Assembly: GCA_001275005.1 (NCBI GenBank)
Contig: JWZX01003205.1
Coordinates: 1-64,000 of the forward strand
DNA from: Chrysochromulina tobinii
Lineage: Eukaryota
DNA: 64,000 bases
Direction: 5' to 3'
Part shown: one piece after another, positions 10,190 to 38,986 of the stretch
How positions within the stretch are numbered: position 1 is the stretch's first letter
Layout of the letters: each line of letters opens with the position of its first letter
Translations under genes and position numbers: made by a program
Notes under the pieces: generated by a model
What the model saw: the letters and a program-made list of their open reading frames with translations, nothing else
The model's database searches: none
Told to the model about the DNA's origin: nothing

Positions 10190-13100
10190 TCAAAGGTGAA
10201 ACACTGCCGAAGCTCTGGAAGCGGAAGGCGACGCCGTCTGCATCACACGCTCTGCGTGGCCAGCCACTCGGCGCAGGACCCTCAAGCGGATGACGCCATA
10301 CATCCGCTTGAGCCGCTTCGTCGTCTCCATGTGACCGACGGCATTCCATCCACTGACCGAGAGCACCTGATCGCCAACGAACAGCTTGCCGTGCGCGAGG
10401 GCGTCGCTTGCGACCGCATCGAGGAAGGGGTGTCCTTCGCCCGAGAGGGTGACGCCTAGCCGCGCGTTCTTGTCAGGCTTCTCGAGCACCACCTCAAGCA
10501 CGATCCCAGCGAGATCGCGCGAGGGTGCATACGGCGCAACCAGTGCCGTCGCCTCTGGTGCCGTGGCCTCAGGTGATGTCGCCTCCGGTGATGTCGCCTC
10601 TGGTGCCGTCCACTCCGGTTCCGTCCACTCCGGAGGATGCGCCGCCGTCGCCGCGGACGTCGCCGCCGCCGCCGTCGCCGCGGAAGTCGCCGCCGCCGCC
10701 GCCGCCGCGGACGTCGCCGCCGCCGCTGCCCCCCTGGATGCCCCTTTGCCATGCGCGCCCTTGGGCTTCGATGCCGACGGCACGGGGGCCTCCTTGTAGT
10801 CGACAGGGTCACGTGGCGGAGGTCTGCCACGTGGCGTCGCCGCCGGCGGCGCCGGAGCTTGCTGCTTGGGTAACTGTGCCGGCGCGGGCGCGGGGCCGTG
10901 TGTCGGCACCCTTATTTGGGTCGGCACCCTTATTTGGGTCGGCACCACCGCCTCCGGCCCCGGCTCCACTCCAGCTTCGAGAGCCTTCGCACGCGCGAGC
11001 CGATGCCAAGCAAGCACCTGGTGCTCGAGCTGCTGTCCTCGTGCGGAGGCGCTCGTGCACGGCGTGGCGCGCGCCTCAAGTACCTCGCGCATGCCTTCAC
11101 AGAGCTGCGCGAGCGCCTTGGCCGCCAGATGATGCGCCTGCGCGTGATGCACCACCTCCGCTGCCTCCACCTGCCGTCGCCGCTCGTCGAGCCGTCGAGC
11201 GTCAAGAGGCAATCAGCTTGCAATCAGCCTACAATCAGCATGCAGTCAGAGGCTCTCCCACCTGCCGTCGCCGCTCATCGAGCTGCGAGAGGAGGGCCTG
11301 CAGAGTCGGGATCGTCTGATCGGCCGTCGAGAGCAGCTCGCGCGCAGACTCCCGCACGCCCGTCGGATCCGCATAGAGCGCGTCGAGATCCTGCTCGCAG
11401 TGCGTCAGCCGCTGCCGCAGAGCGCCCACCGCGGCCTCATTATGGGCGCGGTTCATCGATAGCTGTTTGGAGAGCTCGGCCTGCTTCTTCTCGTCGCGCA
11501 CCTGTGGGGAAGGACAAGGCGCCGTGGTGAGCACATGCATGCAAGGCCCGCTTCTCATCGTCGCGCACCTCGAAGCTCGCAAGGACGCTCTCTGCCCGTG
11601 AGAGCCGTTGACGCGTCATGTCGAGCTCTTGCTGGCAAGCGAGCAACGCCGCCTCGGCAGCGGCCAGCGCACCCGAGGGCGGCCCACGAGCCGCCGCAGG
11701 CGCCGTGGTGAGCACATGCATGCAGGGCGGCCCACGAGCCGCCGCAGGCGCCGTGGTGAGCACATGCATGCAGGGCGGCCCACGAGCCGCCGCAGGCGCC
11801 GCGACGGCGAGTGCGGGCGCGGGTCTCACCTGTGGGGAAGGGCAGGGCGCCGTGGTGAGCACATGCATGCAGGGCGAGTGCGGGCGCGGGCGCGGGTCTC
11901 ACCACGGTCAGCTGTTGAGGCCCACGAGGGAGGTCGTGCGGAGGCGGCTGTCGTGGCATTTGCTGCGGCTCGCAGCCCAGCCGCCCCTGCCCATTGGGTG
12001 GACTGGGCGCCCAAATTAGTCGCGTGCTCTTGGGCGCCTTGCGCGACGTACCCCATCCCAGGCTCCGCGTCGTCGTGGTCGCGGCATCCGCCCTGCTCGT
12101 TGTAGTAGTCTGCGTCGAAGCCGCCATCTGGGGCAGCGGCACCGTGCACGCCGCCGCCATCGCCAGCGCCGCCGCCGCCGCTGCCAGTACCTACATCGCC
12201 TCCTCGTCCTCCTCGTCCTCCTCCTCCTCCTCCTCCGCCGCCGCCGCCCTTGCAGCCGCCGCCCTTGCAGCCAGTGGATTGCTCAGCTGCTCCGCTCGTG
12301 GGGGCAGCGCTGGCCGCCGCTGACCAGAGGCGCCGCTGCGCCTCTTCCGAGACGGACTGCACCGGCGCGCCCTCCTCCGCCATCCGTGGGCGCGTCGTCG
12401 TGGGCACCGGCGCGCACCCCTCCGCCATCCGTGGGCGCGTCGTCGTGGGCGCGTCGTCGTACGCGCTGTGAGGCTCCTCCTCATCATCGGTGAGTGGAGC
12501 AGCGTCCTCCATCTCGTCCCGCACGTGCAATCTCGACGAGAGCTCGGCTTGGCCACGTGTCGCGAGCATCGCTGGCGTCAGGTTCGCGAGCACTTGCTTG
12601 CTCAGCTTGGCGCCGCCCTTGCCTGTCGCGTGCAGCATGACAACTCCATCTGTAGCCGCGCCGTCCTGAGCGTCGTCCTTGGGCGGTTCCACAGCCACCG
12701 CGTCGTCCTGAGCGTCGCTCCCCGCTCCATCGCTATCCTCATACTCGACACGCTCGAGGCACGCGTCCTCGTGAGCGTGCTCGCCCTCGGCATCGTCGTG
12801 TGCGCCGCGAGCCGTGCGCCGTCGCAGCCCGGGCAGCGGCCCCTCGTCATCACTGCCGTCGGCCGCGCCGTCGTCGTCGTCGTCGCTCTCGAGCGGCTCC
12901 AGCGCTTCTCCCGCGGCGGCACCTGCGAGCGGACCCAGCCACGCCGCAGGCGCGGGCTGCAGCTCGGGGTGTGAATGCATGTGTGTGAATGTGGGGTCCA
13001 GCCACGCCGCAGGCGCGGGCTGCAGCTCGGGGTGTGCCAGCATCGTCTCGGGTTCAGGTTGCGTCTGCAGCACGTCCAGCGCCATCGCCGCCGCTACGTC

Positions 13101-16100
13101 GGCCGCAGCATCCATCGCCTCCGCTGCCGTCGCCCCCGCCTCGGGCGTCGTCTCGGGCGCGCCGCCTCCCCCGGCGAGCGTCTCGAGTGCATCGAGCGCC
13201 TGCCCAAGGAGCGTCATCAGAGATCATCAGCGGTCATCAGCGGTCATCAGCGGTCATCAGAGGTCATCAGAGGTCATCAGAGGTCATCAGCGTACCTGCC
13301 CAAGGAGCGTCACGAGCGCCTCGGGAGAGTAAAACGTCGCCACGAGCTCAGCCGTTGGGTGCTCGAGGAGCATACCGGTGATCTTGGAGGCGAGCGCTTC
13401 GTCACCTAGCTGCGCCGCCACTACTGGGTACAAAGCATTCCCAAGCTGCTGATCACGCATCGCGCTCGGCATCGCGTCGAGCGCCGCCACGTCACCTTCC
13501 GCGCTCGTCCAAGCTTTTGCGCAACAGGCCGCCTCGGAGCGCACGGCCACCGCTGGCGCTGCCTCCACTGCCCCGACTGCCTCCACAGCCTCCACAGCCT
13601 CCACTGCCCCCACTGCCTCCACGGCGGCGGCGGCGGCCGCATCGGCTTCTTGCGCGAGCGCGAGCCGCCACCGAATCAGTTTCTCTTCTTGCGCGCGCTG
13701 CTCCTCGTCGTGTCGACAGCCCTCACGCCGCTGCAGCAGCGCCAGCCACGTCCTCTGGAGCAGATTAGCCGCACGCGCGGCAGCCTCGGCGTCGAGCCGT
13801 TCGGCCTCCACCTGCATGCAATGAGGGAGGCAATCAGATGCAATCAGATGCAATCAGATGCAATCAGATGCAATCAGCCATCCGATCTTTTCGAGCCGTT
13901 CGGCCTGAGCCTTGGCGTTCACCTGCGCAGCGTGCTGCTCCGCCTCGGCCTTCGCGGCTGCCGTCGCGGCTGCCGTCGCGGCTGCCGTCGCGGCTGCCTC
14001 CGCAGCGTGCCGCTCCGCCTCAGCCGCCGCGTGCCGCTTGGCCCTCACAAGCCTCCCTCGACCGGCTGCCTGCAGCAGGCATGCCATACGTTCCTGCTGC
14101 TGCGCGCGAGCGAAGGCGAGCTCATCGGCGAACCGGTCGACATTGAAGCCCTTGCGCGAGAGCTTATCAAGGGGCCACGCGAGCAGCGACTCGAAGACGA
14201 TCTTGTCCGTGTTCTGCACCAGCTGGAGCAGCGCCGTCGCGAGCGCGTCGCCCACCGCCTCGAGCAGCTCGCGGAGCTCTAGCTGCGGATGCGGCACCAC
14301 GTGCACCACGAGCCAATCGCCCTCGGAGAGCGCGCACGCCTTGGCCTCCATCTCGATCGAGGCGAGCTCGCCAAAGCGCAGCGTGGACACGATGCCGGGC
14401 ACCTCGCTCACGACGACGCGCTGCTCACGCAGCGCCTGTTGCATGCCTTCTCGCAGGTTGGGTCGCAGCGGGCATTCGGGCTTGTCCAGGTCGTGCAGCA
14501 GCAGGCACGTGCGCTCCTCGATGCGTCGCAGCACCTGCTGCGTGAGCTTGCTGCTGCTCGGCACACTTCCCGCCACAGGGCGTGCCGAGACGGTCACCGC
14601 TTCCGAAAGCGAGCGCACGCCCAAAAAGGTGTACAACTCTTTCAAATCCGCATCCTCGGGCGCGACCAGCGGAGAAAAGAGCTCAACGTACCGCTGATTG
14701 TCCCCGATGAAGCAGCCCGCGGCGCTTACGGCGCTCCAGCTGCGCGCCGTCGCGCCGCCGCCGCCGCTGCCGCCCTTGCCGCCCTTGCCGCCACCTTCGC
14801 CCTTTGCCAGCTGATGGTAACCAATTAGCTGATGGTAACCAATTAGGCAGGGCGCGCTCGCGAGCGCAACGCGCGTCCTTTCGTCGATGGGCTCGCGCCG
14901 CAGCCCGTTCCAGAGCTCCTTGAGCACGCCGAGGTACGCCGAGATATTGGCCTGCATGCTGTCGATGCCGCGGCTGCCGTTGCGTAGCACGCAGCCGGCG
15001 AGAGCCACCGGCGATGGCGTCGCCGCGACGCCGCAACGGGCCAAAAAGGCGCCGGCCGAGGTCGAAGGGCTCTGGCTGCAGTAGTCGAGCAAGGCGCCGT
15101 ACTTTTTGCGCGCCCCGCTGAAAAAGAGAGCGTGCGGCGGCGCGTGCCCGACTCCTTGCCCGACCCCACTGCGCACTGGCACGACCGGCGCGTCCGAGAG
15201 AAGTCCCCACAGCTCTGTGCTCAGCTCGGCAGAGCGTCGGTGCATGTACTCAAAGGTGCGCTCGGCCGACTTCTCGGTCGGCGGCGCCGTGATGAGCTGG
15301 CGCACAACCGCCTCGATGCACGGACGCAACGGAAGCCGCAGCGCCGCGACGCCTGCGGGCCCGCCGAGTGCGCGCACGTCAGCGACTGCGAAGGCCCCAG
15401 GCCACGGCGACGGCTCCGAAAAAGAGACCGATGGCTTTCCGAGCAACGGCCGCCCGTGGGGCTCGAGTGTGGCCACGGATGCGCCCGAAGATCCGGCATC
15501 AGGCGCGGCGATCGGCAGCAGCGGTACGATCTCGAGGGTGGAGATCGGGTCGTACTCCGCAGCGTAGTGCTCCTCCATGTGGGAGATGAGGAAGGCAAGC
15601 GCGGCCTTTCTCACAGGCGCGTCGGCACCCGCCGCCTTGTCGAGCAGCGTGTCGAGCGGCGGCCGCTCGGCGATGCCCAGCCGCAACAGCATGCGCCGCT
15701 CGACCGCCGTCATCGACGTCCCAGACCACGGTAGGGTGGGCAGGCCCAAAGATCGCAATGCGTCAGTTGGTAGGTAGACGCTGCCGCCGCTGCCGCCGCC
15801 GCCGCCGCCGCCGCCGCTGCTGCTTGCGCGCATGGTCTCGAGCTCGGCCCAATCCTCGGGGCCCAGCATCCCTACTCGCTCGCGTGACTCAAGATAGCCC
15901 ACGAGCTCGCGATAGCCCCATCCGAGCTCTTCCATGCGTGCATGCACCAACACGACCGGTGGGTGTGAGCGCAGGCCGAGGCGTGCGAGCAGTGGGGATG
16001 GCACGCCCTCGAGCCCCGTCGCCACCGGCAGCCCGAGCTTTTCCAGCTGCGCGAGTGCGCTGGACGCCAGGTACGTTTCGGGAGGGCAGAGCATCTTGGT

Positions 16101-18322
16101 AGGCTCCACCGTGCCGCTGCTGACGCCGCCGCCATCGACGGCGCTCCCGCCGCTCGAAACGACGGGCACGCAGCGTCGGCTTCGCAGCGCTTGCACCACC
16201 GCGGCTTGCTGCTCCTCGGGCTGCTGCTCTAGGTGGGCACCCACCACGCGAAGCACAAGCGGCGCACTCTCGGGCGACTCAATGCATGCATGCCCACTAA
16301 TGAAGCCCCACCACATGTCGAAGCGGAGCTTCTGCAATCCGAGCTTCTGCTCGCACTGGCTGATGCTCAGATGGGCGGCCACGTCATGTGGCAGCGTCTC
16401 GGGCGGTAGCGGCAGCTCGGGCGGCAGCAGCGCCATGCCGCCGAGCGGGTGCAGGCTAAAAGTCGCGAGCGCTCGCGACATCCCCTCTCGACCGAGCGTC
16501 ACCTTGACTGACCGTTTGAACAATGCACGGTCGTCGGCGTCGCCAAAGGCCCGTCGGTCGTGCATCTGCGCATACCATACGAGGAGGCGGCCGAGCTGTG
16601 GGGCAGGCAGAACGGTGCCCGCGAGCTGCTCACAGAGCCGGCGCGCATCGAGCGGCCGAATGAGCGGCGGCGCGTGGCGCTCGAGCTGCTCGTAGAAAGC
16701 GAGGCAGTGGCACTCCGCGGCGGTGGGTGGGATCAGTGGCAGCTCTGTGAGGAATTCGAGGGCACCTCGCAGCTCGGCTGGCACGGTGAACACGAGGGAT
16801 GCCGGCTGCGGCCCAAAGGTACTGGGCACCACAAGCCTGTCGCCCTGCGCGAGGAATGCGTCTGAGAGTAGCTTGCTCACTGTTCGGTTGGGTGTTGAGG
16901 GTATAAAGGTATGGCCCCGGAGCAGCGCCGCGAGCCACGGAGTGAGCACAGGCGGCGGCGGCTCCTTCTTCCTCTCCTCCTCGGCCGGCGCCGAAGCGTC
17001 GGCGGGGCCCGTGCTGGCGGCGGCGGCGGCGGCGATGGCGGCGGCGGCGGCGGCGGCAGCGACTGGTGGCTTCTTTTGAAGCACCTTGACCTTGACGGGT
17101 AGCGCGCCGGTGCTACTGCCGCTCAGGCGGAGCAGCTCGTCGGTGAAGTAATGGAGCGCCATGCTGCCGGCCATCGCGAGCAGCGCCGTGTTCCAAAATT
17201 GGCAATTCTTGTCGTTCATATCGAGGGCGGTCCGCTCCATGGTCGGCAAGAACCCGCCGCACAGATGAAATCCACACCTGTCGACTGGTCCGTCTGTCCG
17301 ATTCCGATATAGATGCGGCCGTCCTCGCGCAGCGCGTGCATCGCGGCGAGCAGTGCGGCGCTGTGCGGCGACGCCGTTCCCGGCGCGTCCGCACTCGACG
17401 CTGCTGGGGCACCGCCACTCGGCACGGGGTAGAGGAGCCGCAGCGTGGAGCGATCGGGCAGGCCCTTGCCGAGAAGCCGACACAAGCCCGCGGTGACGTC
17501 GCCGAGCTTGCCGCGGTCCGTCTTGCGCACGTCCAGCTCGCCCTTGAGCTGCACGAGCTCCGTGATCGCGAGCACACGACTGAGGCTCGTGGCCGACACG
17601 GAGAGCTTTGCAACCTCGAGCGATCTCCCGCCCATGGAGAAGAGCGGACGGATCACGGCGCCGTCACGCGTCTCGGCTGGCGCGGGGCTCTCGTACGGCA
17701 CCGTACGCAGCGGTGTCAGCGCCCGGCGGAAAATGAGCGGCGCAGGCTCGTCAGTGCGCACCAGCTCGATCGTGGCGAGCGTTCGCGCGAAGAGGAGCGT
17801 CGAGCATAGGAACGAGCAAAGTTTCCCAAACTCGTCGGGTGACGCCCAGTGGGTGGCGTCCGCGCCAGCGAGCAGCGGGCACACGACGGTGGCGCCGCTC
17901 ACCAGCGTCGTCAATGCCCGCTCGTAGATGCAGTAGGCCTTGTCCTCCTTGGCAAAACGCATGGCCTTGCCGCCCGATTGGATCTCCGGCTGGTCCGAGG
18001 CCGAGAAGACTGAGTAGAAGCCGACACCGAATAGACCGACGGATGAGGAGTCCGTGTTGCCCTTGGCGATCATGGCCACGCGCTCCCAATCGGCCTCACC
18101 GAATTCGCGACCAGAGTTGGACACCTCGAGCTTGGCCACGCTGCCGTCCGCAGCCACGTGCAGGGTGATCCTGCTGTGGGTCGCCTCGGCGTCGTCGCTA
18201 TTCTGCAGCAGCTCACGCAGCACGAAGAAGGAGGCACTGTACCGTGACAGGATTTTGGACATGAGTGCCTCGTAGTCCACGCCGAGAAGCCGGCGCGTCT
18301 CGCCACCATGACCGCCCTCCAT
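10190..18322 (-). CDS. Multi-exon giant protein: sacsin/HSP90-like ATPase (DUF3684-type N-terminus), helical region, MLLE/PABC domain, coiled coil, C-terminal PDZ; one frameshift at about 17277
   Basis: ILSRYSASFFVLRELLQNSDDA..NSGREF..DWERV..IAKGN..VGLFGVGFYSVF (GHKL/sacsin motifs). GRIYIG..FLPTMERTALD..WN. MLLE: QQLGNALYPVV..ASKITGMLLE. PDZ: RLGVTL..GKLFVGDQVLSVSG. Predicted frame-consistent introns: 13812-13922, 13200-13295, 12003-12051, 11830-11902, 11502-11568, 11171-11261. That all exons form a single transcript is inferred. Confidence 0.7.
11502..11902 (-). repeat. Four copies of the cassette TGCATGCATGTGCTCACCACGGC; two are extended by a pyrimidine tract plus CAG and form intron 3' ends
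   Basis: Plus-strand gccgtggtgagcacatgcatgca at 11521, 11702, 11750 and 11849. Confidence 0.9.
13200..13295 (-). other. Predicted GT-AG intron with (CTGATGACCN)n decamer core and duplicated exon end
   Basis: CAG|GTACGC...TGACGCTCCTTGGGCAG|GCG. Removing it rejoins the two halves of the MLLE domain in frame. Confidence 0.85.
13812..13922 (-). other. Predicted GT-AG intron with (CATCTGATTG)n decamer core
   Basis: CAG|GTGAAC...TGCATGCAG|GTGGAG. Phase 0; removes an in-frame stop between the two ORFs. Confidence 0.75.
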
Positions 18323-18645
18323 GATAGCGTCACCGAGAAGGACGCGACGTTCTCCACTAACTTGGCGCCGTCTCGGGCATTTCGTAATATTTAATCTGTT
18401 TTCCACTCACGGGAGACGCTCATACACATCCTCACAAGACACGCACACACTCAAACGTCCAGGTTTTGAGCGATGGTTTTGAGATAGGAGCAGGGGGGAT
18501 GCAGCGGTGCACCAAAGAGATGGCGAGCGCCTTCTGTGCCTCGTTTCGTATTAAGCGAGCTCACGAAACCACTCGTGCACCTCAAGGTGCTAAAGTTAGG
18601 ACTGAACTGAACTTAACTGATGAGGACTGTGAAGCACGATCAAGG

Positions 18646-21600
18646 ATGAGCGACTTTGTTGGGGACGACCCCGACTTCGCGGCGCTCTCCGAAGTCTTCG
18701 CGGAGCCATCCGAGTCGGAGAGTTCGGATTTGATCGAGGAGTTTTTTGGAGGGCAGCCCCTAACACAAATCTCAGACCCGCAGCCTCCGCCGCCGCCCAC
18801 CGTCCCTGGCGCACACGACGCCGGCGACGATTACGGCGAGATCGCTGCGGATATCGCGGCAGATAACGTGGCAGCTCACGTCGCCGCCATGGCGGATAAC
18901 ATGCCGCCGCCGGCGGCGGCTGGGAGGTCGAGCAGTATGGTCGCCATGGCCGGGCCGAGCGCTCCTGAGGTTCTTCCCGAAAGGCTCTTACATCTCGTCA
19001 ACTTAATAGCCAACCGAACCATATGGACACCGCAGAAGCACGACATTGCCCTGCTGCTCATGTACAAGGACAATCCCCAGCTCGCCCGCGTGCCTCGGCG
19101 GCCAGAGGCTGATAAGTACTTGGCGATCGGCCCGTGCGTCTTCTTCGTGGATAAGAGTATGCCAGCGGACGGGAAAAAGAGGAAAATGGAATCCAGTTCA
19201 CAGGCCGGCGGATCCTCCAACGACGAGTTGTGGATCAAGGGTACGAGCACCTCTGCAGCTGGCAGCTCGCTCGACAAGAATTTGCCGCCGAATGCAGGGT
19301 GCAGTGCCTTACTTCGCAAGAGTGGCGGGTTCACCCGAGCAGCTAAGGAGCTGTATGGCCCAAGGAGTATCGGACATTATTGTTTGGGCTACACTGAAGA
19401 GCATTCCAGCTTTCTCCCTGGCTGCGTCGAGGATCGAACACGAACGCTCCTCGTTGGGCGCAGCAAGGAGAAGTTTCAACCCTGTACTACCTGGCTGGTT
19501 CACTGCATGCCGACCGAGCACGACTCGGATGACGCAGAAAGCGCCGGTGCACCAGACAAGCCAGACGCGACCTTCGGAAAGGTCAGCGTGGACGAGTTGC
19601 GAATCAAGGGCGTGGATCTTTGGGAAGAGTTCCTGGAGATGAAACGACAGTGTCAGGAGCTCGTGCAGGAGCTTAACGAGAAGGTGAAGCGCTTAGAGGA
19701 TGGAGCTTCGGGCCACACAAGCCAGCGTGCCGATCTCGCTGAATGGATGCGCAAGTTGTCGGCAGACGAAGTGATTCGCCCGGGGGACATTGGACAAGTG
19801 CGCGGCGAGCGCTTCACCAGAGAAATCACCAGTGAGCCAGGTGGTATCATCTTTGTCGTGAGCTCCGCTCCTGCATTGGCGTTCAATATGCCCGAGGCTC
19901 CCGAGGAGCGCGCGGAGGGTGTGGTGCTCGCCTTTATCGGCCGTGTCCCCGTCTTCTGTGTGGGCGACGCACCGCTCGACTCCTTTCTGGTGCCATCCGG
20001 GCTCGACGATGGTTCGGCTCGCGCAGTGTCGTGGTCGCAGGTGATGAGCAATGAACCTTCTTCTCGAACGGAGCCTCTGCCCCTCTCTGCCTCTCACACG
20101 AGTTTTCGGATGTACCCCGTCTGTGTGCCATGCGCAGCTCGAGTCAGACGAGTCGTTGCGAGACCGGTGCTTTGGAGTCGTCTGGGGACACTTGCCGCCG
20201 GACACCGACGGTCGGCCGATGGTGCTCGCCTTCGTGTGTGCCCATCCGCAACAAACCTTTGGGAGGCTGCGCAACGTGGAACAGGTTGCCCCGCTCCGAA
20301 GCGAGCTCGTGCCTGCGCCTTTGTCCGGGCGGCGTCCGCTCGAACTGCGTCCGTACCAGATGGAATGCTTGAAAGCTGGGATGGCTGAGAACACCATCGT
20401 CTGTTTGGACACCGGCTTGGGCAAGACGCCAATCGCTGTGAAGCTCGTGGATCACTTCCTTGCCGCAGCAACAGAAGCATCGGACGGCAGCAAAGTCCTC
20501 TTCATCGTACCCACCGTTGTCTTGGTGGAGCAGCAGGCGCGAGTGTGCCGACAGTACAGCGCGAACGCACGTTGCGTCACCGAGCTCTGCGGCAACCGTC
20601 TGGGTGGGTGGACACAGGCGAGCTGGGACTTGTGCATCCAGACCAGCGATGTCCTTGTCGGCACACCCGCCATCTTTGCTGATGCTATCATTACTCGTGG
20701 ATACCTCGACTTGTCGCGGTTCTCGTTGATTGTGTTTGACGAGGTGCATAATGCAACTGGCAACAGCCCGATGGCTTCGCTGATGAACGATGCCTACTGG
20801 GCTGCCAAGGACAAGGGAGTTGCGGTGCCTCACATCCTCGGTTTGACCGCTTCCTTTGTCGCCGGAGCCATCGATGACCTCGCCGGCAAGCGTCAAGCTC
20901 TCGAGACGCTGATGGACTCCCAGATCTTTGCCCCAGAGGTGCCCGTCGAGTATTGCGGCACGCCAACGTTCCACACCGTAGCGTATCTCCCTGACGCGCT
21001 CGAGAACTATCAAGAGTTGGCTAGTGACAAGGTGGACGTCCTGCTGTCAAGCTTCGAGGGCGAGCCTATTCAAGTCAAGGATCGCAAGAAGATAGTGAAT
21101 CACGCGGCACACGTGCTCGTCGAGGGCGGCATGTCTGCCTTCCTTTTCTACCTCGGAGAGTCAGTTGCGTACCAGCTGCAAGGTATTGCTCAAAACTTGG
21201 CTGAAATGTCGGACGAGAACGCTAAGGCCTGTAGGCACAAGGCGAACCATCTTTGTAAGATACTCCCCGAGCTCCGTCGAAGGCTCAAGGAGGGAGCGAG
21301 AGGCCTGCAGGAGGACGGCCAGCTCACGAGTGCACCATTCGTCTCAGCCAAGGCCCGGCGTCTCCTCGAACTCGTTGAGGACAATTTGAAACGTCATGCC
21401 AACCAGGCGCAGTACAAGGGCATCGTGTTTGTCGAGCAGGTGGCATTGAGCTTCCCGCTCGCATACCTGCTGAATCAGCACTTTGAACGTCCAGACTGCG
21501 TCGGTGCGGCGTGCGGCGTACGTGCCGACGTCATCTCCGGTGTGGGCACGATGTCAAGCTCGCAACGAAGCGCAGTGCTCGAACGATTCAAGAAGGGAGA

Positions 21601-22726
21601 GGTTCGCATCCTGGTGGCCACCGCTGCCATCGAAGAGGGCCTCGACGTCAGCGACTGCCAATTTGTGGTACGGTACTCGCATTTCAACGTCCCAAAGAGC
21701 CATATCCAGGGCACAGGACGAGCACGCCATCGGAAGGCCGAGATCTACTATTTTGAGAATTCACCTGACGCGGAGTGCTTCAAGGCGGCGGAGATGAAGC
21801 TGGTTGCCCAGGACCCCTCTCTCGCACTGTGCGAAGCTGACCGCACCCAACTTGCGCGTGAGAGCTTGCGTAGCATTGAGGGCTTCTACCCTTTCGGGCA
21901 GGGCAGCGACGGGGGCGTCGTCAACATCTACAACTGCGTGCAAATCTTTACTGAGTACTGTAGCAAAGTGATGGGCCAGGGGCTCAATTTGCGACAGTTG
22001 AAGATCGAGGTCTACCGAACGGAAAAAGTCCGGGCGTTCCCGCTCGAGGAACGCGAATACCTGGCCCTGGTTCGCTACCCTTCTCCCGACGGATACCAAG
22101 AAGTGAGCTTCGAGGATGTGGGGGCGCATTGGGGCGATCGCGCTGTGATGGACGTCTTGATGCCCGGACGAGCCTTGGAGTCCATGGCTGACAAGGAGCG
22201 CCATCGCTTCCTGTACACGGTCGTGGTCAGGATGCGTCTGGCAGGCTATCTGACCGATGCCAACCAGCCGAGCCCCAGGGCCATCGTGGACACGAAGGCG
22301 GCAGTGGCTGCCATCTCGGCGCCCGACGAGTTCAACATCCTCGACCGCTTTGCGCCCGATGCGCTCGATCAAAGGTTCGGCTCCAGCGTCTCAATCAGCG
22401 CACCCGCACTCGAGCCAGACATGGCTGAGGCAGGCATGCCGCCCCCACCCCCGACTACTGAGAACCACAAGGGGAAACTGATGGAGAAGGCAGTGAAGCT
22501 GTGGAAGACGAGCGATGGGGTGCGATTTCAGACGCAAGTGTCTGGCCAGCCCCCAACTCAAATCTTCCAGGCCACCGTCACCCTCCTACCGTTGGGTGAG
22601 GACTGCAAGTTCACGGGTGCGCAAGCCTCGACGAAAATCAAGGCCGAGCAGGCGGCGGCCGCCGCGGCAATGCCTCGCATGGATGCTGAAATCGCCTGGC
22701 CTCTAGCAACGAAGCCAGCAACCTAG
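18646..22726 (+). CDS. Two-exon fusion protein (about 1327 aa; exons 18646-20040 and 20138-22726): acidic N-terminus, putative DNA-binding domain with NLS, coiled coil, Peptidase G2-like autocleavage domain, Dicer-type DExH helicase, DUF283-like domain, dsRBD
   Basis: Phase-0 intron CAG|GTGATG...TGCGCAG|CTC (20041-20137) joins ORFs 18466 and 20051. Helicase motifs: LRPYQ, DTGLGKT, DEVH, GLTAS, VATAAIEEGLDV, IQGTGRAR. DUF283-like EYCSK..LAGYLTD. dsRBD NHKGKLME..FQATV..KIKAEQAAA. ADLAEW..PGD..VVSSAP..GRVPV..LVPSG..G.ARA. The start codon is uncertain (18499 is an alternative). Confidence 0.85.
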
Positions 22727-23098
22727 CTTTTGCTTGCCTCTACGTGTACCTTGGTTCTATAGCTACGACGTACCCTGTTGACGGGCGGACGGGCCTGAAG
22801 CTGTGTTGTGCGGTACATGTACGAGTAGATCTGAATCGGGAGTCTGACTGAACGCATGCGAGCTCATACATGCCGCCATGATGAGCTACAAGCGAGGAGT
22901 TGTGAGGGCGGGATACGGGGATGGGTCCAGGGGTGATACGGGGGGACCGGCATTCGAGTCGATGCTAGTCCGAGACGTGAAGTATGTGGAGTTCGAGTTC
23001 ATTTCACGCTCCATTCGTCAATTCTTTCGTCACGCGACCGCTTCGTCAAAAAATTCACAATCAACGTTCGTGCCGTGTCTTCGCGATCTGCGGACGGA

Positions 23099-23804
23099 AT
23101 GGCGACATGGTGAGCGGCGGCGGGCGGGCGGGCGGGCGGGCATGCACACGCATCGCGTCCGTGCATCACTAACCGATCTTCATGTCATGTGCTGAGTTGC
23201 CAACAGGGATGGAGCAGAAGACTACGCAAGCTCACCAAACTCTTGGCGCTCGGAGACCCTCGCAAAGATGGCCGTGAATAACAATGCAGTGATCATCACG
23301 GAGACGAAAGCGCCCGGCCGAATCATCGCCTGCAACGCCGCGTGGACTCAGCTCTGCGGTTATGCACCAGAAGACGCGCTCGGCAAGACGCCTCGCATGC
23401 TGCAGGGCAAGGACACCTCGGTATGCAAGGCGCGATCCTTCACACGGCAGTGCCACCAGAACAAGATCCGGAGCGAAGAGAACGGATTTGCAGCGTGGCA
23501 GGGAAGGGCGCGTACAAAACTCGTCAACTACACCAAGGACGGCCGCGAGTTTGTGCACTGTCTTCAAACGCTCCGCGTTATGGATGAGGACACGGGCGAA
23601 GAGTTCTTTCTGACGGAGTCGCACGAGGAGACTGATAACGGCATCTATGCCGCCATGATCAAAGGGCAGGAAGCGCCTTCTCGATTCCCGATTCGGGATG
23701 GCGCTCTCTACGTCCTGTTGGTCTCCGCGTGCCTCGCGCCAAGCGTACTGCCAGTCGTACAGGTCTGCCTTTCCGACCTGTCGACCTTCATGAACTGCGC
23801 ATAG
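23099..23804 (+). CDS. PAS (LOV-like, Cys-less) domain protein; intron 23110-23206
   Basis: AVIITE..RIIACNAAWTQLCGY..DALGKTPRMLQG..LVNYTKDG. Micro-exon ATGGCGACATG|gtgagc...cactaac...caacag| is in frame with ORF 23268. Confidence 0.8.
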
Positions 23805-24455
23805 TGGGCATGACGAGCCCAGCCTTGCTGCTGCGGCCCTGCTCAAACGGATGCGAAGGCCATTGACGAACGATCGGCGCCGAGCACATACCATTTCTCC
23901 TCGGGCGCGATCGCTGGCGGTGTTGATCATTTGGCAGAGAAATACGGCGTGCTCAACTGTGAAGCTGTGGGTCTCACTCTGTCTGAACTCTCTGTCAGAG
24001 ACGCGAGTTTTGAGAGCCAAGCGTGCGCGCCGGCGGACCGATCGCGGACGGATCAGGCGCCGCGCCGCTCGTCTTTCTAGACTAACAACCACACATTTGT
24101 GGCGATCGTGTAACACGTACACCCCAGTCCCATGCACAGTCCCCAGGGCGGAGCGCGAGCGGGCTACCGACGAGTACCGCTACTAGAACCACACAGTCAC
24201 AGACGAGACGCAAGACGCCCTGGGCCTGGCGACACCCCGGGATCAGGTTATGCGTGGGAGATGTCCCCCCGCCGGTCTATTGTGGAACCACCCGCCCCGA
24301 GGGGTTTTCGGTCAAATTGTGGGTTTTAATTAAGCCCCCACATCTGGATCATCTATTTCTGTCGGCAGTTGTCACAACTCACTGTAACGTTCGAGGTCTG
24401 CAACAGGGCAACGTTCCCAAGCAACCGCTCACGCACGTCCACTCGCCCGACGACA

Positions 24456-24767
24456 ATGCCATCGCAGGAGTCCTCACCTGTGTCCACACCTCGCACCCCG
24501 GCATCGACACCACGCGCGGATCGCTCGCCGCCCCTCCCTCTGCGCCAGCCACGCGCACGGCCAGGAACTCTGGAGAGCGAAGAGATTTACAATCCTGACA
24601 TGATGCGGCTCCTCCTCAGCGAAGACTGCCTGGAATCGGACGGCAAGGAAAACACGCCCCCATTCATCCTGCGTGCGGCGCGGCGCCACGAGCGCCTGAC
24701 GCCGCGGCGTCTCTCCGATGCGCTGCAGGACTCCAACCCGTCGACGCGTCAGATGCTCACCTTGTAA
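24456..24767 (+). CDS. Small hypothetical Ser/Pro/Thr-rich protein with KEN-box-like motif
   Basis: ORF from ATG at 24456 with multiple S/TP sites and KENTP. No family recognised. Confidence 0.35.
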   Translation: MPSQESSPVSTPRTPASTPRADRSPPLPLRQPRARPGTLESEEIYNPDMMRLLLSEDCLESDGKENTPPFILRAARRHERLTPRRLSDALQDSNPSTRQMLTL

Positions 24768-25001
24768 CTGAGGTTCACGCGCGCCAAGCGGTGAGGCATC
24801 CTATCGACTATGCGACTGCTTCGTGGCGTGGCATATCATGAGTGATCTGCTGAATATGTGTTTACGCGTTGATATTTCTCCCTCAAACCGCACTACTCCA
24901 CACCCGGACACACAGCCGAGCACACACCTCCAGCACACGCCCTTCACACACACACGAACGTGGCGTGGCCGTGGCATAGAGGCACGCAGCGCCGGCGGCC
25001 C

Positions 25002-25966
25002 TCAGGATTCAATCAGCTGCGTTGCAGGAGGTCGCCCCATGCTGCCGTCGGCCCCTGTGTGCATATGTCCCTGAGGCTGCTGCCTGCTCCCTGTTCCACT
25101 GTGGACGCCAAGCTTCCGACAGCGATCGTACATCACTATCGAGCCCGCGACGGCGACATTGTAGCTCGAGGCACGCACGCCATCCAGCGAGATGCAGTAC
25201 TGGCACGCGCTCACGACGCTCTTCGGCAGGCCGGCGTCCTCAGCTCCGAGTATGTACACCGCGCGCTCCGGGTGAACGAACTCGGCGAGAGGGATCCCGC
25301 CCATCTCCACGGCAACCCAGATTGTCGAGTAGGGCGCCGCCGCCGCGAAGGAGGCCCAGTCTTCGTAGCGGAGAGCAGGAATGTGCCGCCATGTCTTATA
25401 CGTATCCGCTGCCTTCTCCCAAGCATTTCGCTGGCCTATGGTGAAAATGTACGCAGCACCAAGCATAAAGGCGGAGCGTCACAGCGTGCCGACGTTCTCG
25501 ACGGACTTGGAGTTGTACACTCCAATCCCGAAGAAGCCACCAGTTGTGATTGCAGCGTCGGCTGACTGCACATCGCCAGCCGTCGCCTGTGCACCCTCTG
25601 CGAGCGACTGCCGACGACGTGCTGTAGTCACTGTCTCCATTGCTTCGTGAGTTAGAGCAGGCTGCTCAAGCATCACCTCGACACGACAGACTCCATGCTC
25701 ATCCGCGATCGGCATCGGTATGCACGAGTGTTCGCGAAGCCGCTCCCAACCCTCGAGCACCTTCGAGTAGAAGTAAGGCACCAGCCTATGCAACGGCACG
25801 TTGGCCTCCACCGAGCCCAATGCGTATAGTAGCTCAGCTCCAGAAATGGTGCTCGCCCCGGAGGCCTCAAGTCGGAGCACGCGTCGTTCCGAAGGGTCTC
25901 ACCCTTGAACATGTAGCGCAGCACCAGAATGGACTCCGCGATCGGCCCGGCTGCCATCGTCGCCAT
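25002..25966 (-). pseudogene. SpoU/TrmH-family RNA methyltransferase interrupted by an in-frame TGA (25479-25481) and an apparent frameshift near 25890
   Basis: FFGIGVYNSKSVENVGTL*RSAFMLGAAYIFTIG..HPERAVYILGAED.GL..SYNVAVAGSIVMYDR. The stop sits where Trp is expected (NxGTLWRSA). Confidence 0.7.
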
Positions 25967-26140
25967 TCGGGTGCCAGAGGCGACGAAGGTGTGAATGCAA
26001 TCAGGCCGTTATCGGCCGGAAATAAGCCCCCCCCGAGTGTGTAGATAAGGTGGTTGGGCTGTTATGTGTGGCGGCGATAATTTTGCGTGTTGCATGTTTT
26101 TCTGTTCAGATGCGAGTGGTTCTAATTCCGCTGGTCCACA

Positions 26141-26650
26141 ATGCTGCCGTCCACAGCGCGTTTTTACGCTGGCGATGCGTACGCGGCAGTTCGAGCCCAC
26201 AATTTGGTCGCTCCTGCAGCTTTGCCCATATATGATTCGTGCGACGGCGTCCTCACACCCAATCATCTGACCGTCACTGCCAACGAGAACCCGATTGTGA
26301 ACCGTGAGAAACTGGTCAGCGCAGTCTCACGGCTTTGCCAAGTCGTAAAGCCACCCAAGCGACCTGCTGTCGTGTCATCGTGCTCGCTAGACGGGCACGA
26401 AGTCCGAGTCATGCACAAACTTGGGGTCGTGCAAGGAATTGAGGGGCAACGGCACGACGATTTGGTGGCCATCTACCATCTCCAACCGAGAAAGCGAGAC
26501 GTCCTCATGACATATCGGCCCACGCCAACACCGATAGGCGCGGCGATGCCTGTGCTGGAGAGACCCGAGTACGCTCCGGCGTTGATGAAAGTGGCGAATG
26601 CCGCGGTCGTCGGGCAACTCGCCCCATCACCGCACCAACCCAACCGTTAG
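26141..26650 (+). CDS. Hypothetical ORF, possibly a 5' exon of the downstream cNMP-binding gene
   Basis: 169-aa ATG-initiated ORF with normal composition. No motif recognised. Confidence 0.3.
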   Translation: MLPSTARFYAGDAYAAVRAHNLVAPAALPIYDSCDGVLTPNHLTVTANENPIVNREKLVSAVSRLCQVVKPPKRPAVVSSCSLDGHEVRVMHKLGVVQGIEGQRHDDLVAIYHLQPRKRDVLMTYRPTPTPIGAAMPVLERPEYAPALMKVANAAVVGQLAPSPHQPNR

Positions 26651-26709
26651 TCCGCAGACCCTTCGTCCCATCGCCACGGTTTGCACTTCGCGCCCGCGCT
26701 CCTGGCGCA

Positions 26710-28104
26710 TTGGCTCATCCGCCGGCCTCGGCACGTGGCACGGCACGTGGCAGGGCGGCAAGTGGGTCGACACTTGGCACCGGCAACACTGTCGGCAGTG
26801 CTCCTGACGCTCCACCCGCGGAGTTACCCGCGGAGGCTGCGTCGTCTGCTACTACTCAAGCCGTGGCAGTCGCTTTGTCCGATGAGGTCGATGCTGCGGG
26901 TCTGTCGATACCGTCGGCGGCAGTCACGGCAGGGCCAGTCGCAGTGATGGCGACGCCCGCGCAGAGGGAGAAGCGCCGTCGGTGCCAGCTCCGAGCAAAG
27001 ATGCGCCGCCTGCTTCGTCAGGCGATCAAGTTGGCTCTGGAGGATGTGGCCCTCGGTCGCACCATTGGAAGCAAGTCGTCCAACGCCCCTCTCGTTGACT
27101 TGGCGAAATTGACGCGCGTGGCGATGGAGACGCGCCGGATTGTCGACGCACTGAAGCGTTCGGACCTATTCGCACAAGTGGACGCGCAGCACTTGAGGCT
27201 CATTGCCTCCTCAGGCACGCGCCGTACGTACAAGAGGTATGACGTCCTCTATCGTGAAGGAGCGCCTGCGCAGTGCTTCTACATGCTCACGCGCGGAACT
27301 CTCATGGAGTCGAGCATGCACACGGCGAGCGCTGCATACGGTGCCGACGAGCCGAAGCTGCTCTCGGCGCGTGAGAACTTCACCATCCGGGGTGTCGGCC
27401 AAGGTGGAAGCGGCAAGGCCGACGAGCAAGGCGGCAGCGGCAAGACCGGCGGCGCGAGCGATGCCACGGGCACGAGCGGCTATGTGCTTTTCGGACTTGA
27501 GACACTGGTGGGACGTGCGCGTGAGTCGACGCTGTTGGCGATGAGCGACGTGGATGTGATCCGGTTCAACTCCAGCAATACCATCCTGGGCGGCGACACC
27601 TTTGCTCGCAGCCTCAAGCTCGACGCGAAGGCAGCTGCCAAAGTCGCCAAGCGCATCTTCCATGCATTCGTGTTCGGCGAGCTCTCGCGCATGCAACTCT
27701 TCCACGGGGTGATAGCAAAGACCCTCCGTGCGCTAGTGCCCCTCTTCACATTCGAAGAGATCGAGGAGGGCGCCCAGATTTTCGGGCTTGGCTACGCGCC
27801 GGACAAGGTGTACATCCTGATGCATGGGTCGGTTTACCTGCGGCGGCGCGACGGCACCCGATTCGCAGCGCTCTCAGCCGAGCAGGGCCAGTCTGGGCGC
27901 GGCCTTGAGCCTCGAGAGCTCCCGACGTTTGGGGAGACGGCGATGCTCGATCGCAAGGCGCGCACGACGTCGGCGATCGCGGTGACAGCCTGCAAGCTTT
28001 TAGTGCTGCACGCGGAGCACTTTGGGGCGTGCACGGACCTCGTGCCTGATATCAAGGAACGTCTGCGTTCCCTGGGAGATATGCCGCTGAAGGGTGCGCA
28101 GTAA
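26710..28104 (+). CDS. Tandem cyclic nucleotide-binding domain protein (5' end uncertain)
   Basis: LKRSDLFAQV..YDVLYREGAPAQCFYMLTRG..FGLETL..RESTLLA. Second domain LFHGV..GAQIF..DKVYILMHGSV..FGETAML..RTTSAIAVTACKLLVL. Confidence 0.85.
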   Translation: MAHPPASARGTARGRAASGSTLGTGNTVGSAPDAPPAELPAEAASSATTQAVAVALSDEVDAAGLSIPSAAVTAGPVAVMATPAQREKRRRCQLRAKMRRLLRQAIKLALEDVALGRTIGSKSSNAPLVDLAKLTRVAMETRRIVDALKRSDLFAQVDAQHLRLIASSGTRRTYKRYDVLYREGAPAQCFYMLTRGTLMESSMHTASAAYGADEPKLLSARENFTIRGVGQGGSGKADEQGGSGKTGGASDATGTSGYVLFGLETLVGRARESTLLAMSDVDVIRFNSSNTILGGDTFARSLKLDAKAAAKVAKRIFHAFVFGELSRMQLFHGVIAKTLRALVPLFTFEEIEEGAQIFGLGYAPDKVYILMHGSVYLRRRDGTRFAALSAEQGQSGRGLEPRELPTFGETAMLDRKARTTSAIAVTACKLLVLHAEHFGACTDLVPDIKERLRSLGDMPLKGAQ

Positions 28105-28394
28105 GGTGCGCGATCAAACTTTACGCTCGTCGCGTGCGGAGCCGCGAGGCACCCGCGTGTGTGCCACATGTTCGTGTTTGCAAGCTTTGACCTTTGTGCA
28201 AGCTTTGTGCAAGCTAAGGGTGCAAGCTATGTGCAAGCTACATGTATGTGCTGCTGGGTGTTTGTGTCGAAGAGTTGTGCGTCAATTTTGCTCTACATGT
28301 AAATTTGCATGCACCCATAATTATATCTCCGACCAACTTACCTATAAATTAAAAGATTAGTTAGCGAAACGATTCTTCCATCTCACAGGCATCA

Positions 28395-29504
28395 ATGAGG
28401 ATCACCTTCGCAATGCTCGCTCGACCACCAGCAAACATCACGCAGGCACCATTCACTGCCTGCCACGCTGGCGAGATGCTTGGATGTGCCTTTGCAACGT
28501 GGGTGCCCCTGCTACCTCAGGCCTCCTCCGATGTAGCGATTCTTCTCGATTGCTCGAAACCATCGGGAGCTCAGGGCACGTTGCCAGTGTCGTACACGAC
28601 AATGGTTCCAGCTGCGATTCACTCGCGCTGTCTATGGGGTGGCGTGTGTGATCGCTACAACAACGACACACGGTACTCCCTCACGTGTGCTCGAGGCACC
28701 ATCGCGCTCCTCGACTGGCTGAACGAGGCCTTCAGCGGCACAGAATTCGTCGTCAAGGTGGACACGGACGCGCTGCTGCTTCCTGCGCAGGTCGATTCGT
28801 ACGTACGCTCGTTAGCGAGTGCAGTCGCGCTCGATCCTAAGCAGGTGGTGATTTATGCCGGCAACGCGCTGCGGACGTATGAGTACAGGCGTTGCGAGGG
28901 CGTCCGCGTCCGCGGCAGGTCATATTGCTCATCGGCGGGAAAACCATGCGGCAAGCTGGTGTGTTTGCGCAGCACCGTGCAATGGCAGCATCTGGAGGCC
29001 TCTATCAACCCGCTGCGGGTGCCCGACTTGCACGAAATGCGAGTCTCGAGGTTCTGGCGCGCGGACAGTCCCTCAGCATCGGGTCCTAAGTCTCCCCATG
29101 CAGCGCGAGCGGCCTTCATGCTTGAGTCGCTGAGCGCCGCCAATCGCTCCAAAAGCGCTGTAGGATACGGGCACGGCGGCACATATGTACTTTCGCGTGC
29201 CGCTGTCGTCGCCATGGCAAGCAAGCAGTGCGTACGCCGCGTCTCTAGCATCCAGTGCTACGGATGGTCAAGCAAGGAGCCGGGCGCGTGCGAGCACTCA
29301 CCGCAGCACGAAGATGCGGCCGTCGGGCTGTGCGCCCATCTGCTCGGCGGCGTGCACCAGCTGACCGAGCGGTGCTTTGTCCGTTATCTCAAGGAGTGGC
29401 CAATCTGCAAGGCGCGGCTCCTCGCGCTGCATCCGATAAAGAATGGAAGCGTATACTTGCGAGAGTGGCAGCACCATCGGCGCGCGGCGGGGTTTACAAA
29501 GTGA
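28395..29504 (+). CDS. Glycosyltransferase family 31-like (galactosyltransferase/Fringe-like)
   Basis: FVVKVDTD (DxD), YGHGGTYVLSRAAV, HEDAAVGLC, ALHPIK. Confidence 0.75.
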   Translation: MRITFAMLARPPANITQAPFTACHAGEMLGCAFATWVPLLPQASSDVAILLDCSKPSGAQGTLPVSYTTMVPAAIHSRCLWGGVCDRYNNDTRYSLTCARGTIALLDWLNEAFSGTEFVVKVDTDALLLPAQVDSYVRSLASAVALDPKQVVIYAGNALRTYEYRRCEGVRVRGRSYCSSAGKPCGKLVCLRSTVQWQHLEASINPLRVPDLHEMRVSRFWRADSPSASGPKSPHAARAAFMLESLSAANRSKSAVGYGHGGTYVLSRAAVVAMASKQCVRRVSSIQCYGWSSKEPGACEHSPQHEDAAVGLCAHLLGGVHQLTERCFVRYLKEWPICKARLLALHPIKNGSVYLREWQHHRRAAGFTK

Positions 29505-38802: not shown

Positions 38803-38919
38803 CTTGTGAGAGCAGGACAAGACAAGGCAAGACGCAAGGTCTAGTTTATTCACGGCAGGGTCGAAGATGGCCTATGGTTTCGAAATTTCCCGTCATGTAC
38901 CGGCCATCAGCAACCCCCA

Positions 38920-38951
38920 ATGCCGCCACTCATGTTCGGCATGCCGACGGC

Positions 38952-38986
<35 letters not shown>

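What the first reader, a model, noticed from the sequence alone, without database searches (positions are those of the whole stretch)
19560..20240. Phage tail-appendage-type intramolecular chaperone (Peptidase G2-like) domain in a eukaryotic gene, split by an intron
Seen: short beta segment and coiled coil (FGKVSVDELRIKG..ELNEKVKRLE), then SQRADLAEWM..IRPGDI..IFVVSSAP..VLAFIGRVPV..DSFLVPSG.DDGSARA, continued after the intron by CFGVVW..MVLAFV. Known: an (A)D-x-A-E motif with a catalytic Glu marks the phi29 gp12-type autocleaving chaperone. Inference from remembered motif similarity: the domain is domesticated (intron-containing) and cleaves just upstream of ADLAE.
Basis: partly seen in the sequence, partly recalled or inferred. 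Interest (0 to 1): 0.75.

Follow-up and report, generated by a model that had tools for sequence, protein, structure and literature searches.

The report
Self-cleaving transcription factor fused to helicase
A spliced, transcribed gene of a probable freshwater alga places a phage phi29-type folding domain between a likely DNA-binding domain and a Dicer/RIG-I-type RNA helicase, so the protein is predicted to form trimers and cut itself, and would release a transcription factor, possibly in response to viral double-stranded RNA.

Summary
The 97-nt GT-AG intron (20041-20137) is spliced in 3 of 4 RNA runs, and one RNA contig runs from the chaperone through the helicase. The domain fails the Pfam Peptidase_G2 HMM directly. 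An intronless homolog's model, however, matches phi29 gp12's cleaved C-terminal domain best (Z 13.1, Asp aligned to Asp692), the Glu is kept in 149 of 149 covering rows, and a homotrimer is predicted (0.90 against control 0.00). The 1327-aa protein reads: acidic tail; a domain whose best structural match is NAC (Z 5.7-6.2, with Ssr4, WOPR and GCM next); beta stalk and coiled coil; predicted cut A362|D363; G2 chaperone; intact Dicer/RIG-I-type helicase; dsRBD-like end. It works like MYRF but with a different chaperone family, a different DNA-binding fold and a dsRNA helicase instead of a membrane anchor. Relatives swap the C-terminal module for a protease with dsRBD-like domains, IQ-like motifs or membrane helices. 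Cleavage, DNA binding and dsRNA control are inferred, not shown.

The parts
18646..20040 (+). Exon 1 coding part, 465 aa (ATG at 18646 is the likely start; an in-frame upstream ATG at 18499 also exists)
   Evidence: RNA contigs cover from about 18770
18646..18972 (+). Acidic, proline-rich N-terminal tail (aa 1-109; 20 D/E, 1 K/R, 15 P); possible activation region (inference)
   Evidence: poorly conserved among close homologs
18973..19515 (+). Folded domain (aa 110-290) of likely NAC/CG-1/WOPR/Ssr4 (WRKY-GCM1 clan) fold; contains KKRK at 19174-19185 in a low-confidence loop (possible nuclear localisation signal, inference)
   Evidence: AF2 pLDDT 83, pTM 0.80; VIA best matches NAC Z 5.6-6.2; no Pfam hit
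19573..19611 (+). Short beta stalk (aa 310-322), at the three-chain interface in the homolog's trimer model
19618..19701 (+). Coiled coil (aa 325-352), heptad contacts in the homolog's trimer model
19729..19734 (+). Predicted self-cleavage site A362|D363 (phi29 gp12 S691|D692)
   Evidence: PMC6542822 passages give gp12* as residues up to 691
19741..19743 (+). Glu366, equivalent of gp12 Glu695 (catalytic role of E695 is recalled, not read)
   Evidence: 149 of 149 covering rows; register
19732..20040 (+). G2-type intramolecular chaperone, first part (aa 363-465)
20041..20137 (+). Spliceosomal GT-AG intron, 97 nt, phase 0
   Evidence: spliced in 3 of 4 RNA runs; intronless homologs
20138..20236 (+). 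G2-type chaperone, second part (aa 466-498)
20345..21727 (+). Dicer/RIG-I-family SF2 helicase: Walker A TGLGKT 20411-20428, DEVH 20738-20749, motif III 20840-20854, motif VI 21707-21727, all intact
   Evidence: Pfam DEAD E 1.3e-21, Helicase_C E 4.8e-15; best PDB hit AncD1D2 E 4.8e-50, then DCL4, DCL1, Dicer-related helicase, MDA5
21911..21976 (+). Start of a region that aligns to the segment after the helicase in AncD1D2 (DUF283-like by recall; Pfam Dicer_dimer was not hit)
22469..22669 (+). C-terminal dsRBD-like domain
   Evidence: Pfam dsrm E 2.4e-4, 22.1 bits, just under the cut-off 23; homologs P0014, P0018, P0019 pass the cut-off
20138..22726 (+). Exon 2 coding part, 862 aa and stop; no PAZ or RNase III domain
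   Evidence: RNA contig X9/25 spans 19229-22483 across the intron

Best explanation
The gene is spliced and transcribed as one unit encoding a 1327-aa protein whose central phi29-type chaperone is predicted to trimerise it and likely cuts it at A362|D363, which would free a 39-kDa trimer with a likely DNA-binding NAC-like domain from a 106-kDa Dicer/RIG-I-type helicase part that likely holds it until double-stranded RNA is bound. Shown: the splice, the fusion in one transcript contig, the domain order, intact helicase motifs, the invariant Glu. Predicted by models: the G2 fold, the trimer, the NAC-like fold. Inferred: cleavage (about 0.75), DNA binding (about 0.65), control of cleavage or release by dsRNA and ATP (about 0.4). 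Proposed steps: helicase and dsRBD domains load on dsRNA; this favours trimer folding of the chaperone, or the ATP-driven letting-go of the cleaved chaperone; the N-terminal trimer, held by stalk and coiled coil, enters the nucleus.
For: Splice and fusion. Fold and register against gp12 692-854, Z 13.1, rmsd 2.9, 116 residues; next unrelated chain Z 9.3; only Foldseek hit with E<=0.001 is 3GQH. Glu in 149 of 149 and Asp in 146 of 149 covering rows. Trimer score 0.90, best of 3 controls 0.00, runs agree in at least 82% of contacts, pLDDT at least 80; the mark was reached by 21 of 30 solved homo-pairs and 0 of 23 monomers (eukaryotes 17 of 29 and 0 of 30), and the pass may come from likeness to solved gp12. 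N-domain: NAC is the only Z>=5 match among 48,161 chains, with Ssr4, WOPR and GCM at ranks 2, 3 and 6; PMC9252788 passages group exactly these folds and report Z 5.4-6.5 between members. Chaperone-helicase fusion recurs in 13 selected homologs with Walker A intact in all and DExH in 12. A Chrysochromulina parva paralog keeps the N-domain (75% identity) and a G2 domain but ends in a protease and two dsRBD-like domains, so dsRNA-binding ends recur. MYRF gives the precedent for stalk-held trimers released by self-cleavage (PMC5436001 abstract, PMC8326128 passages).
Against: No experiment on cleavage, DNA binding or dsRNA response. No Pfam G2 hit for the window's exons or the eight rows of alignment A1, and the first-round profile scored gp12 at -0.8 bits. 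The chaperone and trimer models are of an intronless homolog (L002, 62% identical), not of the window's own spliced domain. The residue before Asp is Ala here and Ser in gp12, and gp12's 45-residue insert is absent. NAC Z scores are under 8 with rmsd 4-5 and 10% identity, Foldseek gave no significant hit, the DxxxW motif is strict in only 6 of 26 rows and not in the window, and Ssr4 of the same fold is reported not to look DNA-binding. Helicase fusions P0011-P0013 carry an N-terminal domain with no detectable likeness to this one. MrfA cleavage is constitutive (PMC3828593 passages), which argues against gating by a sensor.
Confidence: 0.5

Rival explanations
1. Cleavage is constitutive, as in Dictyostelium MrfA: the chaperone only builds the N-terminal trimer and splits a polyprotein, and the two products (transcription factor, Dicer-related helicase) then act separately.
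For: MrfA is cut rapidly and constitutively (PMC3828593 passages). C-terminal modules are freely swapped among relatives, which fits loose coupling.
Against: The fusion with an intact helicase is kept across homologs 46-62% identical in the domain, and dsRBD-like ends recur in a paralog with a different middle; a permanent fusion is easier to explain if the parts are coupled.
Confidence: 0.28
2. The domain is only a trimerisation module and does not cut: the protein is a trimeric DNA-binding factor with attached helicases, for example linking dsRNA or small-RNA pathways to chromatin.
For: Ala rather than Ser precedes the Asp; gp12's insert is missing; no direct G2 HMM hit.
Against: The Glu is invariant, Asp nearly so; Ala (96) and Gly (46) are the usual residues at that place in 147 covering rows, including prokaryote-type members that pass the Pfam G2 cut-off.
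Confidence: 0.12
3. The protein cuts itself but the released N-terminal domain is not a transcription factor; it is some other effector (for example a protein-binding or toxic domain) that only shares a beta-sheet arrangement with NAC.
For: Z under 8, no sequence match to NAM or CG-1; ESM Atlas gave only unnamed clusters under 0.9.
Against: Four members of one clan are among the top six of 48,161 chains and the match covers the whole domain; the domain is basic (25 K/R, 17 D/E) and follows an acidic tail.
Confidence: 0.1

Closest known systems
Bacillus phage phi29 gp12 C-terminal autochaperone (Pfam Peptidase_G2 PF11962; PDB 3GQH, 3SUC)
   Same: Same predicted fold over the whole domain, same D-x-A-E register at the domain's start, predicted trimer.
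   Different: Internal, not C-terminal; lacks about 45 residues of gp12 (about 741-790); follows a short stalk and coiled coil, not a long spike; intron-containing eukaryotic gene; below the Pfam cut-off.
MYRF / Dictyostelium MrfA (NDT80 domain, stalk, S74-type ICA, membrane anchor)
   Same: Same layout: N-terminal likely DNA-binding domain, trimeric stalk, internal phage-type self-cleaving chaperone, C-terminal tether (PMC8326128, PMC3828593 passages; PMC5436001 abstract).
   Different: Glu-type G2 chaperone instead of the Ser-Lys dyad (no S-x4-K at the site in 11 of 11 checked); NAC-like instead of NDT80 fold; helicase and dsRBD instead of a membrane helix (no hydrophobic segment in exon 2).
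RIG-I-like receptors, nematode Dicer-related helicases and Dicer helicase domains
   Same: SF2 helicase most similar to Dicer and RLR helicases with an N-terminal effector region and a C-terminal RNA-binding domain.
   Different: No CARDs, no RIG-I CTD, no PAZ or RNase III by Pfam; the effector is a likely DNA-binding domain joined through a self-cleaving trimeriser.
NAC / CG-1 / Gti1-Pac2 (WOPR) / Ssr4 subgroup of the WRKY-GCM1 clan
   Same: Best structural matches of the N-domain; grouping from PMC9252788 passages.
   Different: About 10% identity, no HMM hit, DxxxW motif not strict; predicted trimer context, whereas NAC domains are dimers (recalled).

Membership tests
Peptidase G2 (phi29 gp12-type) intramolecular chaperone | Match to Pfam PF11962 at the gathering cut-off | tested here: not met
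   No hit at E<=10 for the window's exons or the 8 rows of A1; one helicase fusion, P0203, hits at E 0.02; 35 of 72 scanned relatives hit at E<=0.01, 12 at or above the cut-off
Peptidase G2 (phi29 gp12-type) intramolecular chaperone | Fold of gp12 C-terminal domain | tested here: met
   Homolog model pLDDT 86.6; Foldseek E 2.9e-4; VIA Z 13.1, rmsd 2.9, 116 aligned, model 46-182 to chain 692-854
Peptidase G2 (phi29 gp12-type) intramolecular chaperone | Glu equivalent to gp12 E695 in a D-x-A-E motif at the domain start | tested here: met
   Register; Glu 149 of 149 covering rows of 162
Peptidase G2 (phi29 gp12-type) intramolecular chaperone | Homotrimer | tested here: met
   Prediction only, on homolog L002: 0.90 against best control 0.00; may reflect likeness to solved gp12
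Peptidase G2 (phi29 gp12-type) intramolecular chaperone | Autocleavage after trimerisation, and ATP-dependent release (recalled) | not testable with these tools
   Needs protein work
Peptidase S74 / MYRF ICA | Ser-Lys dyad (S-x4-K) at the cleavage site | tested here: not met
   0 of 11 members checked; no S74 Pfam hit
MYRF family | NDT80 DNA-binding domain and transmembrane anchor | tested here: not met
   No NDT80 Pfam hit; no hydrophobic segment above 1.7 in exon 2
NAC/CG-1 subgroup of the WRKY-GCM1 clan | Shared fold over the whole domain | tested here: inconclusive
   NAC best, Z 5.6-6.2, rmsd 3.9-4.9, 102-111 aligned; under the tool's Z 8 caution line but well above unrelated rows
NAC/CG-1 subgroup of the WRKY-GCM1 clan | Pfam NAM or CG-1 match | tested here: not met
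   No hit at E<=10
NAC/CG-1 subgroup of the WRKY-GCM1 clan | Sequence-specific DNA binding | not testable with these tools
   Needs DAP-seq, SELEX or EMSA
Dicer/RIG-I-like SF2 helicase | Helicase core closest to Dicer/RLR, intact motifs I, II, III, VI | tested here: met
Dicer | PAZ and two RNase III domains | tested here: not met
   No hit in exon 2, which ends at the dsRBD-like domain
RIG-I-like receptor | CARDs and zinc-binding C-terminal domain | tested here: not met
   No Pfam hit for either

The most novel reading that the evidence does not exclude
A one-protein antiviral relay in algae: a Dicer/RIG-I-type helicase senses dsRNA and, through a domesticated phage G2 chaperone, releases its own trimeric NAC-like transcription factor, with no adaptor or kinase cascade. 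It is one branch of a protist toolkit in which G2 chaperones join DNA-binding domains to interchangeable sensors (dsRNA helicase, protease with dsRBD-like domains, IQ-like motifs, membrane helices), evolved independently of MYRF.
Probability: 0.3. Interest if true: 0.92.

Novelty: new variant of a known kind. Interest (0 to 1): 0.8.

Why it matters
MYRF is the textbook case of a eukaryote using a phage self-cleaving chaperone to release a transcription factor. This gene points to a second, independent recruitment, from the unrelated G2 family, wired to a dsRNA helicase. How unicellular algae sense viral RNA and turn it into transcription is largely open (my own knowledge); this protein gives a concrete, single-gene hypothesis with a named cut site and point mutants, in a genus with cultured members. 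It also suggests a NAC/CG-1-like fold in haptophytes that sequence searches miss.

Tried and rejected
Pfam, PHROGs and PDB sequence searches with the window's domain or alignment A1 found no chaperone family. No close relative in IMG/VR contigs (14 pattern matches, none confirmed) or in 50,697 phage records (one weak hit, E 4). Artefact of assembly: rejected, locus L001 from another contig is 99.96% identical over 16 kb and RNA contigs bridge the parts. Provirus or transposon: no viral or transposase family among 36 long ORFs scanned and only short chance-like repeats in 17500-24500; the local GC dip remains unexplained. S74/MYRF-type dyad: not found. N-domain: no match by Pfam, PDB sequence profile, ESM Atlas, Foldseek PDB or viral library. 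A resemblance to CG-1 that I recalled could not be tested because no CG-1 structure or AlphaFold library was on hand. Tree of 153 chaperone rows (12 of 165 dropped for lacking the motif, near-duplicates and window fragments left out beforehand): only the quick tree finished; 32 eukaryote-type rows formed one branch with support 80, unstarred and with long branches, and the paralogs P0163-P0170 (which include intron read-through) fell elsewhere, so origin and number of transfers are unresolved. A dsRBD-like end that I suspected in P0270 was not detected. Profile comparison of the window-type N-domain with that of the membrane type gave only probability 8.5, E 0.004. No whole genome is held. A second read-laying over 13000-26000 with possible DNA runs did not complete, so there is no DNA-run control for the splice. 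The original gp12 paper (Xiang et al. 2009) is not held. No supplements were read.

Full report
Gene structure. A GT-AG intron at 20041-20137 joins them in phase 0. Of 19 runs listed as holding the region, 14 are on record as RNA. I laid 4 of them: 3 show a joint skipping 97 nt with GT..AG ends, and the fourth has a contig starting inside the intron. In the poly(A) run X9 one contig covers 19229-22483, from upstream of the stalk to the start of the dsRBD-like end; in X1 one covers 19188-21131. These are contigs, not reads, and no DNA run was laid as control. Six database homologs without the intron align across the junction with no gap, and P0003, a close strain with a 96-nt intron, is read through it in frame by a gene caller. 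The spliced product is 1327 aa. An independent contig, L001, is 99.96% identical over 16 kb.

Organism and setting. No genome is held. Neighbours are ordinary eukaryotic genes. The N-domain is 75% identical to part of a Chrysochromulina parva protein named by EukProt, and the RNA holders are freshwater or mixed-culture samples, so a freshwater haptophyte is likely (inference). GC is 0.57-0.62 over 18001-34000 against mostly 0.64-0.69 elsewhere; GC3 of this gene is 0.69-0.72 against 0.69-0.87 for eight other ORFs. This does not show recent transfer.

The chaperone. Direct HMM tests fail: no Peptidase_G2 or S74 hit for the exons or for 8 aligned rows. Indirect tests agree with one another. The ESM Atlas returned Peptidase_G2 clusters for 21 of 30 hits, best score 0.92 with 198 shared features, the family being on about 20% of cluster members. 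A profile of 8 rows found 2004 representatives at E<=0.001. Of 72 proteins scanned (71 of the 150 listed plus P0014), 35 hit Peptidase_G2 at E<=0.01 and 12 reach the cut-off; none of the helicase fusions in that set did. The first-round profile scored phi29 gp12 at only -0.8 bits; a second-round profile from 162 rows scored it 23.3 bits (pairwise E 1.9e-9; best of 1000 shuffles 9.8), aligning A-D-x-A-E with S691-D692-F693-A694-E695. A 71-row profile gave probability 90.9. The Glu is present in 149 of 149 rows that cover it, the Asp in 146; 13 rows are fragments, and about 7 are near-copies of the window's protein. AlphaFold2 on the intronless homolog L002 (62% identical) gave pLDDT 86.6. Its best matches are 3GQH and 3SUC (Foldseek E 2.9e-4 and 1.1e-3; Z 13.1 and 12.9, rmsd 2.9 and 2.8), with the model's Asp46 aligned to residue 692, the first residue of the 3GQH fragment; phage capsid decoration proteins follow at Z 9.3 or less. 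Three copies scored 0.90 against a best control of 0.00, with stalk, coiled coil and the cleavage strand in the interface (21 of 30 solved pairs and 0 of 23 monomers reach the mark; the calibration was for two copies; a like complex is solved, so this shows likeness). Mature gp12* ends at residue 691 (PMC6542822 passages; PMC4690869 passages). The cut is therefore predicted at A362|D363. That E695 is catalytic and that release needs ATP is recalled from Xiang et al. 2009, which is not held.

What lies downstream. Exon 2 carries DEAD, Helicase_C and a near-cut-off dsrm hit. The closest solved sequences are the ancestral Dicer construct AncD1D2 (E 4.8e-50), plant Dicer-like proteins, Dicer-related helicase and MDA5, ahead of Hef and FANCM (E 1e-16 to 1e-15). 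Motifs I, II, III and VI are intact in the window; among 13 homologs I selected as fusions, Walker A is present in 13 and the DExH box in 12, the rest being cut short. There is no PAZ, RNase III or CARD.

What lies upstream. Residues 110-290 are conserved in a group of homologs and fold with pLDDT 83, pTM 0.80 from 26 rows. Sequence searches and Foldseek give nothing significant. Full structural alignment does: among Foldseek's top 1000, four NAC chains score Z 5.6-6.2 and the next row 3.1; among 48,161 representatives NAC is the only Z>=5 match, with Ssr4 (4.6), WOPR (3.7) and GCM (3.5) at ranks 2, 3 and 6 and an unrelated ribosomal chain at rank 4. PMC9252788 (passages) groups NAM, CG-1, Gti1/Pac2 and Ssr4 in one subgroup, with Z 5.4-6.5 between several members, and notes that Ssr4 does not look DNA-binding. 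The tool warns that Z under 8 may mean only a common arrangement. The DxxxW motif is strict in 6 of 26 rows, not in the window, though the Trp is invariant. I rate DNA binding likely, not shown.

A modular family. The same chaperone appears in eukaryote-type proteins with other ends: (i) a C. parva paralog with this N-domain, a longer beta-repeat stalk, a G2 domain only 36% identical to the window's, a trypsin-like protease, RanBP zinc fingers and two dsRBD-like regions (about 16 bits against 4.2 for the best of 400 shuffles); (ii) 8 proteins with an N-terminal CxxC...CxxC motif, 7 of which have an IQ-like pattern after the chaperone, with Pfam IQ below cut-off; (iii) 4 proteins with hydrophobic C-termini, one named as Mucochytrium quahogii by UniRef. 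Three helicase fusions (P0011-P0013) have a different N-domain. The prokaryote-type majority have the chaperone near the C-terminus followed by a coiled coil. The quick tree cannot fix the origin.

Mechanism. The layout matches MYRF, where the stalk holds N-terminal fragments as trimers after self-cleavage (PMC5436001 abstract; PMC8326128 passages), but each part comes from another family. I commit to self-cleavage releasing a trimeric NAC-like factor, with the helicase part acting as tether and dsRNA-dependent gate (0.5 overall). The main rival is constitutive cleavage as in MrfA (PMC3828593 passages).

Novelty. Ten searches of the held library found no description: Peptidase G2 with eukaryote or chaperone terms and PF11962 gave 0 papers (one search read the term as one word); RIG-I-like with haptophyte gave 0; a six-term search for a self-cleaving factor with dsRNA sensor gave 0; some searches gave only phage, MYRF, small-RNA and fold papers (listings seen). 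PMC12220804, PMC12917162 and PMC4156623 were seen as passages and added only background. Subscription journals and supplements were not seen. Earlier scan notes hold no look-alike of this sequence but include the membrane-anchored G2 type and an S74-kinase fusion; these are unchecked notes, not support.

Verdict. Real, expressed, G2-like by fold and motif though not by Pfam cut-off; a new variant of the MYRF design, with a real chance of being an undescribed dsRNA-to-transcription relay. Interest 0.8.

Noticed in passing
window 13854-18322 (-): Divergently transcribed neighbour: sacsin/HATPase N-terminal ORF and a DUF3684 ORF in overlapping frames, probably one intron-split gene.
   Followed up: no
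window 19646-19678: The strain in RNA run X9 has a net 21-nt in-frame deletion (one heptad) in the coiled coil; P0216 shows a similar shortening.
   Followed up: no
P0285 (Chrysochromulina parva, EukProt) and P0163-P0170: Paralog with the same N-domain but a different stalk, a divergent G2 domain, a trypsin-like protease with His, Asp and Ser motifs, RanBP zinc fingers and dsRBD-like regions.
   Followed up: partly
L004:196-1788, L008, L009; P0031, P0051, P0059, P0088, P0100, P0101, P0107, P0144: Another eukaryote-type architecture: CxxC...CxxC, coiled coil, G2 chaperone, IQ-like motifs; possibly calmodulin-controlled release. L008 and L009 appear frameshifted within the chaperone.
   Followed up: partly
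P0072, P0142, P0158, P0161: MYRF-like architecture with N-domain, beta-repeat stalk, G2 chaperone and hydrophobic C-terminal segments.
   Followed up: partly
L005:3135-4088, L006:854-2161, L007:3-758: Bacterial-type proteins with a C-terminal G2-like chaperone followed by a coiled coil; L006 has a signal-peptide-like start.
   Followed up: no
window 18001-34000: GC falls to 0.57-0.62 against mostly 0.64-0.69 elsewhere in the window; unexplained.
   Followed up: partly
window 23196-23804, 26443-28104, 38845-40134, 55820-56836 (-), 58122-60956: PAS-domain protein, cyclic-nucleotide-binding protein, alpha-kinase, 2H phosphoesterase and Y-family polymerase genes.
   Followed up: no
P0014, P0017 (L003): These helicase fusions have an extra region before the dsRBD that looks like a winged helix by eye (Z-alpha-like, recalled, untested).
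   Followed up: no
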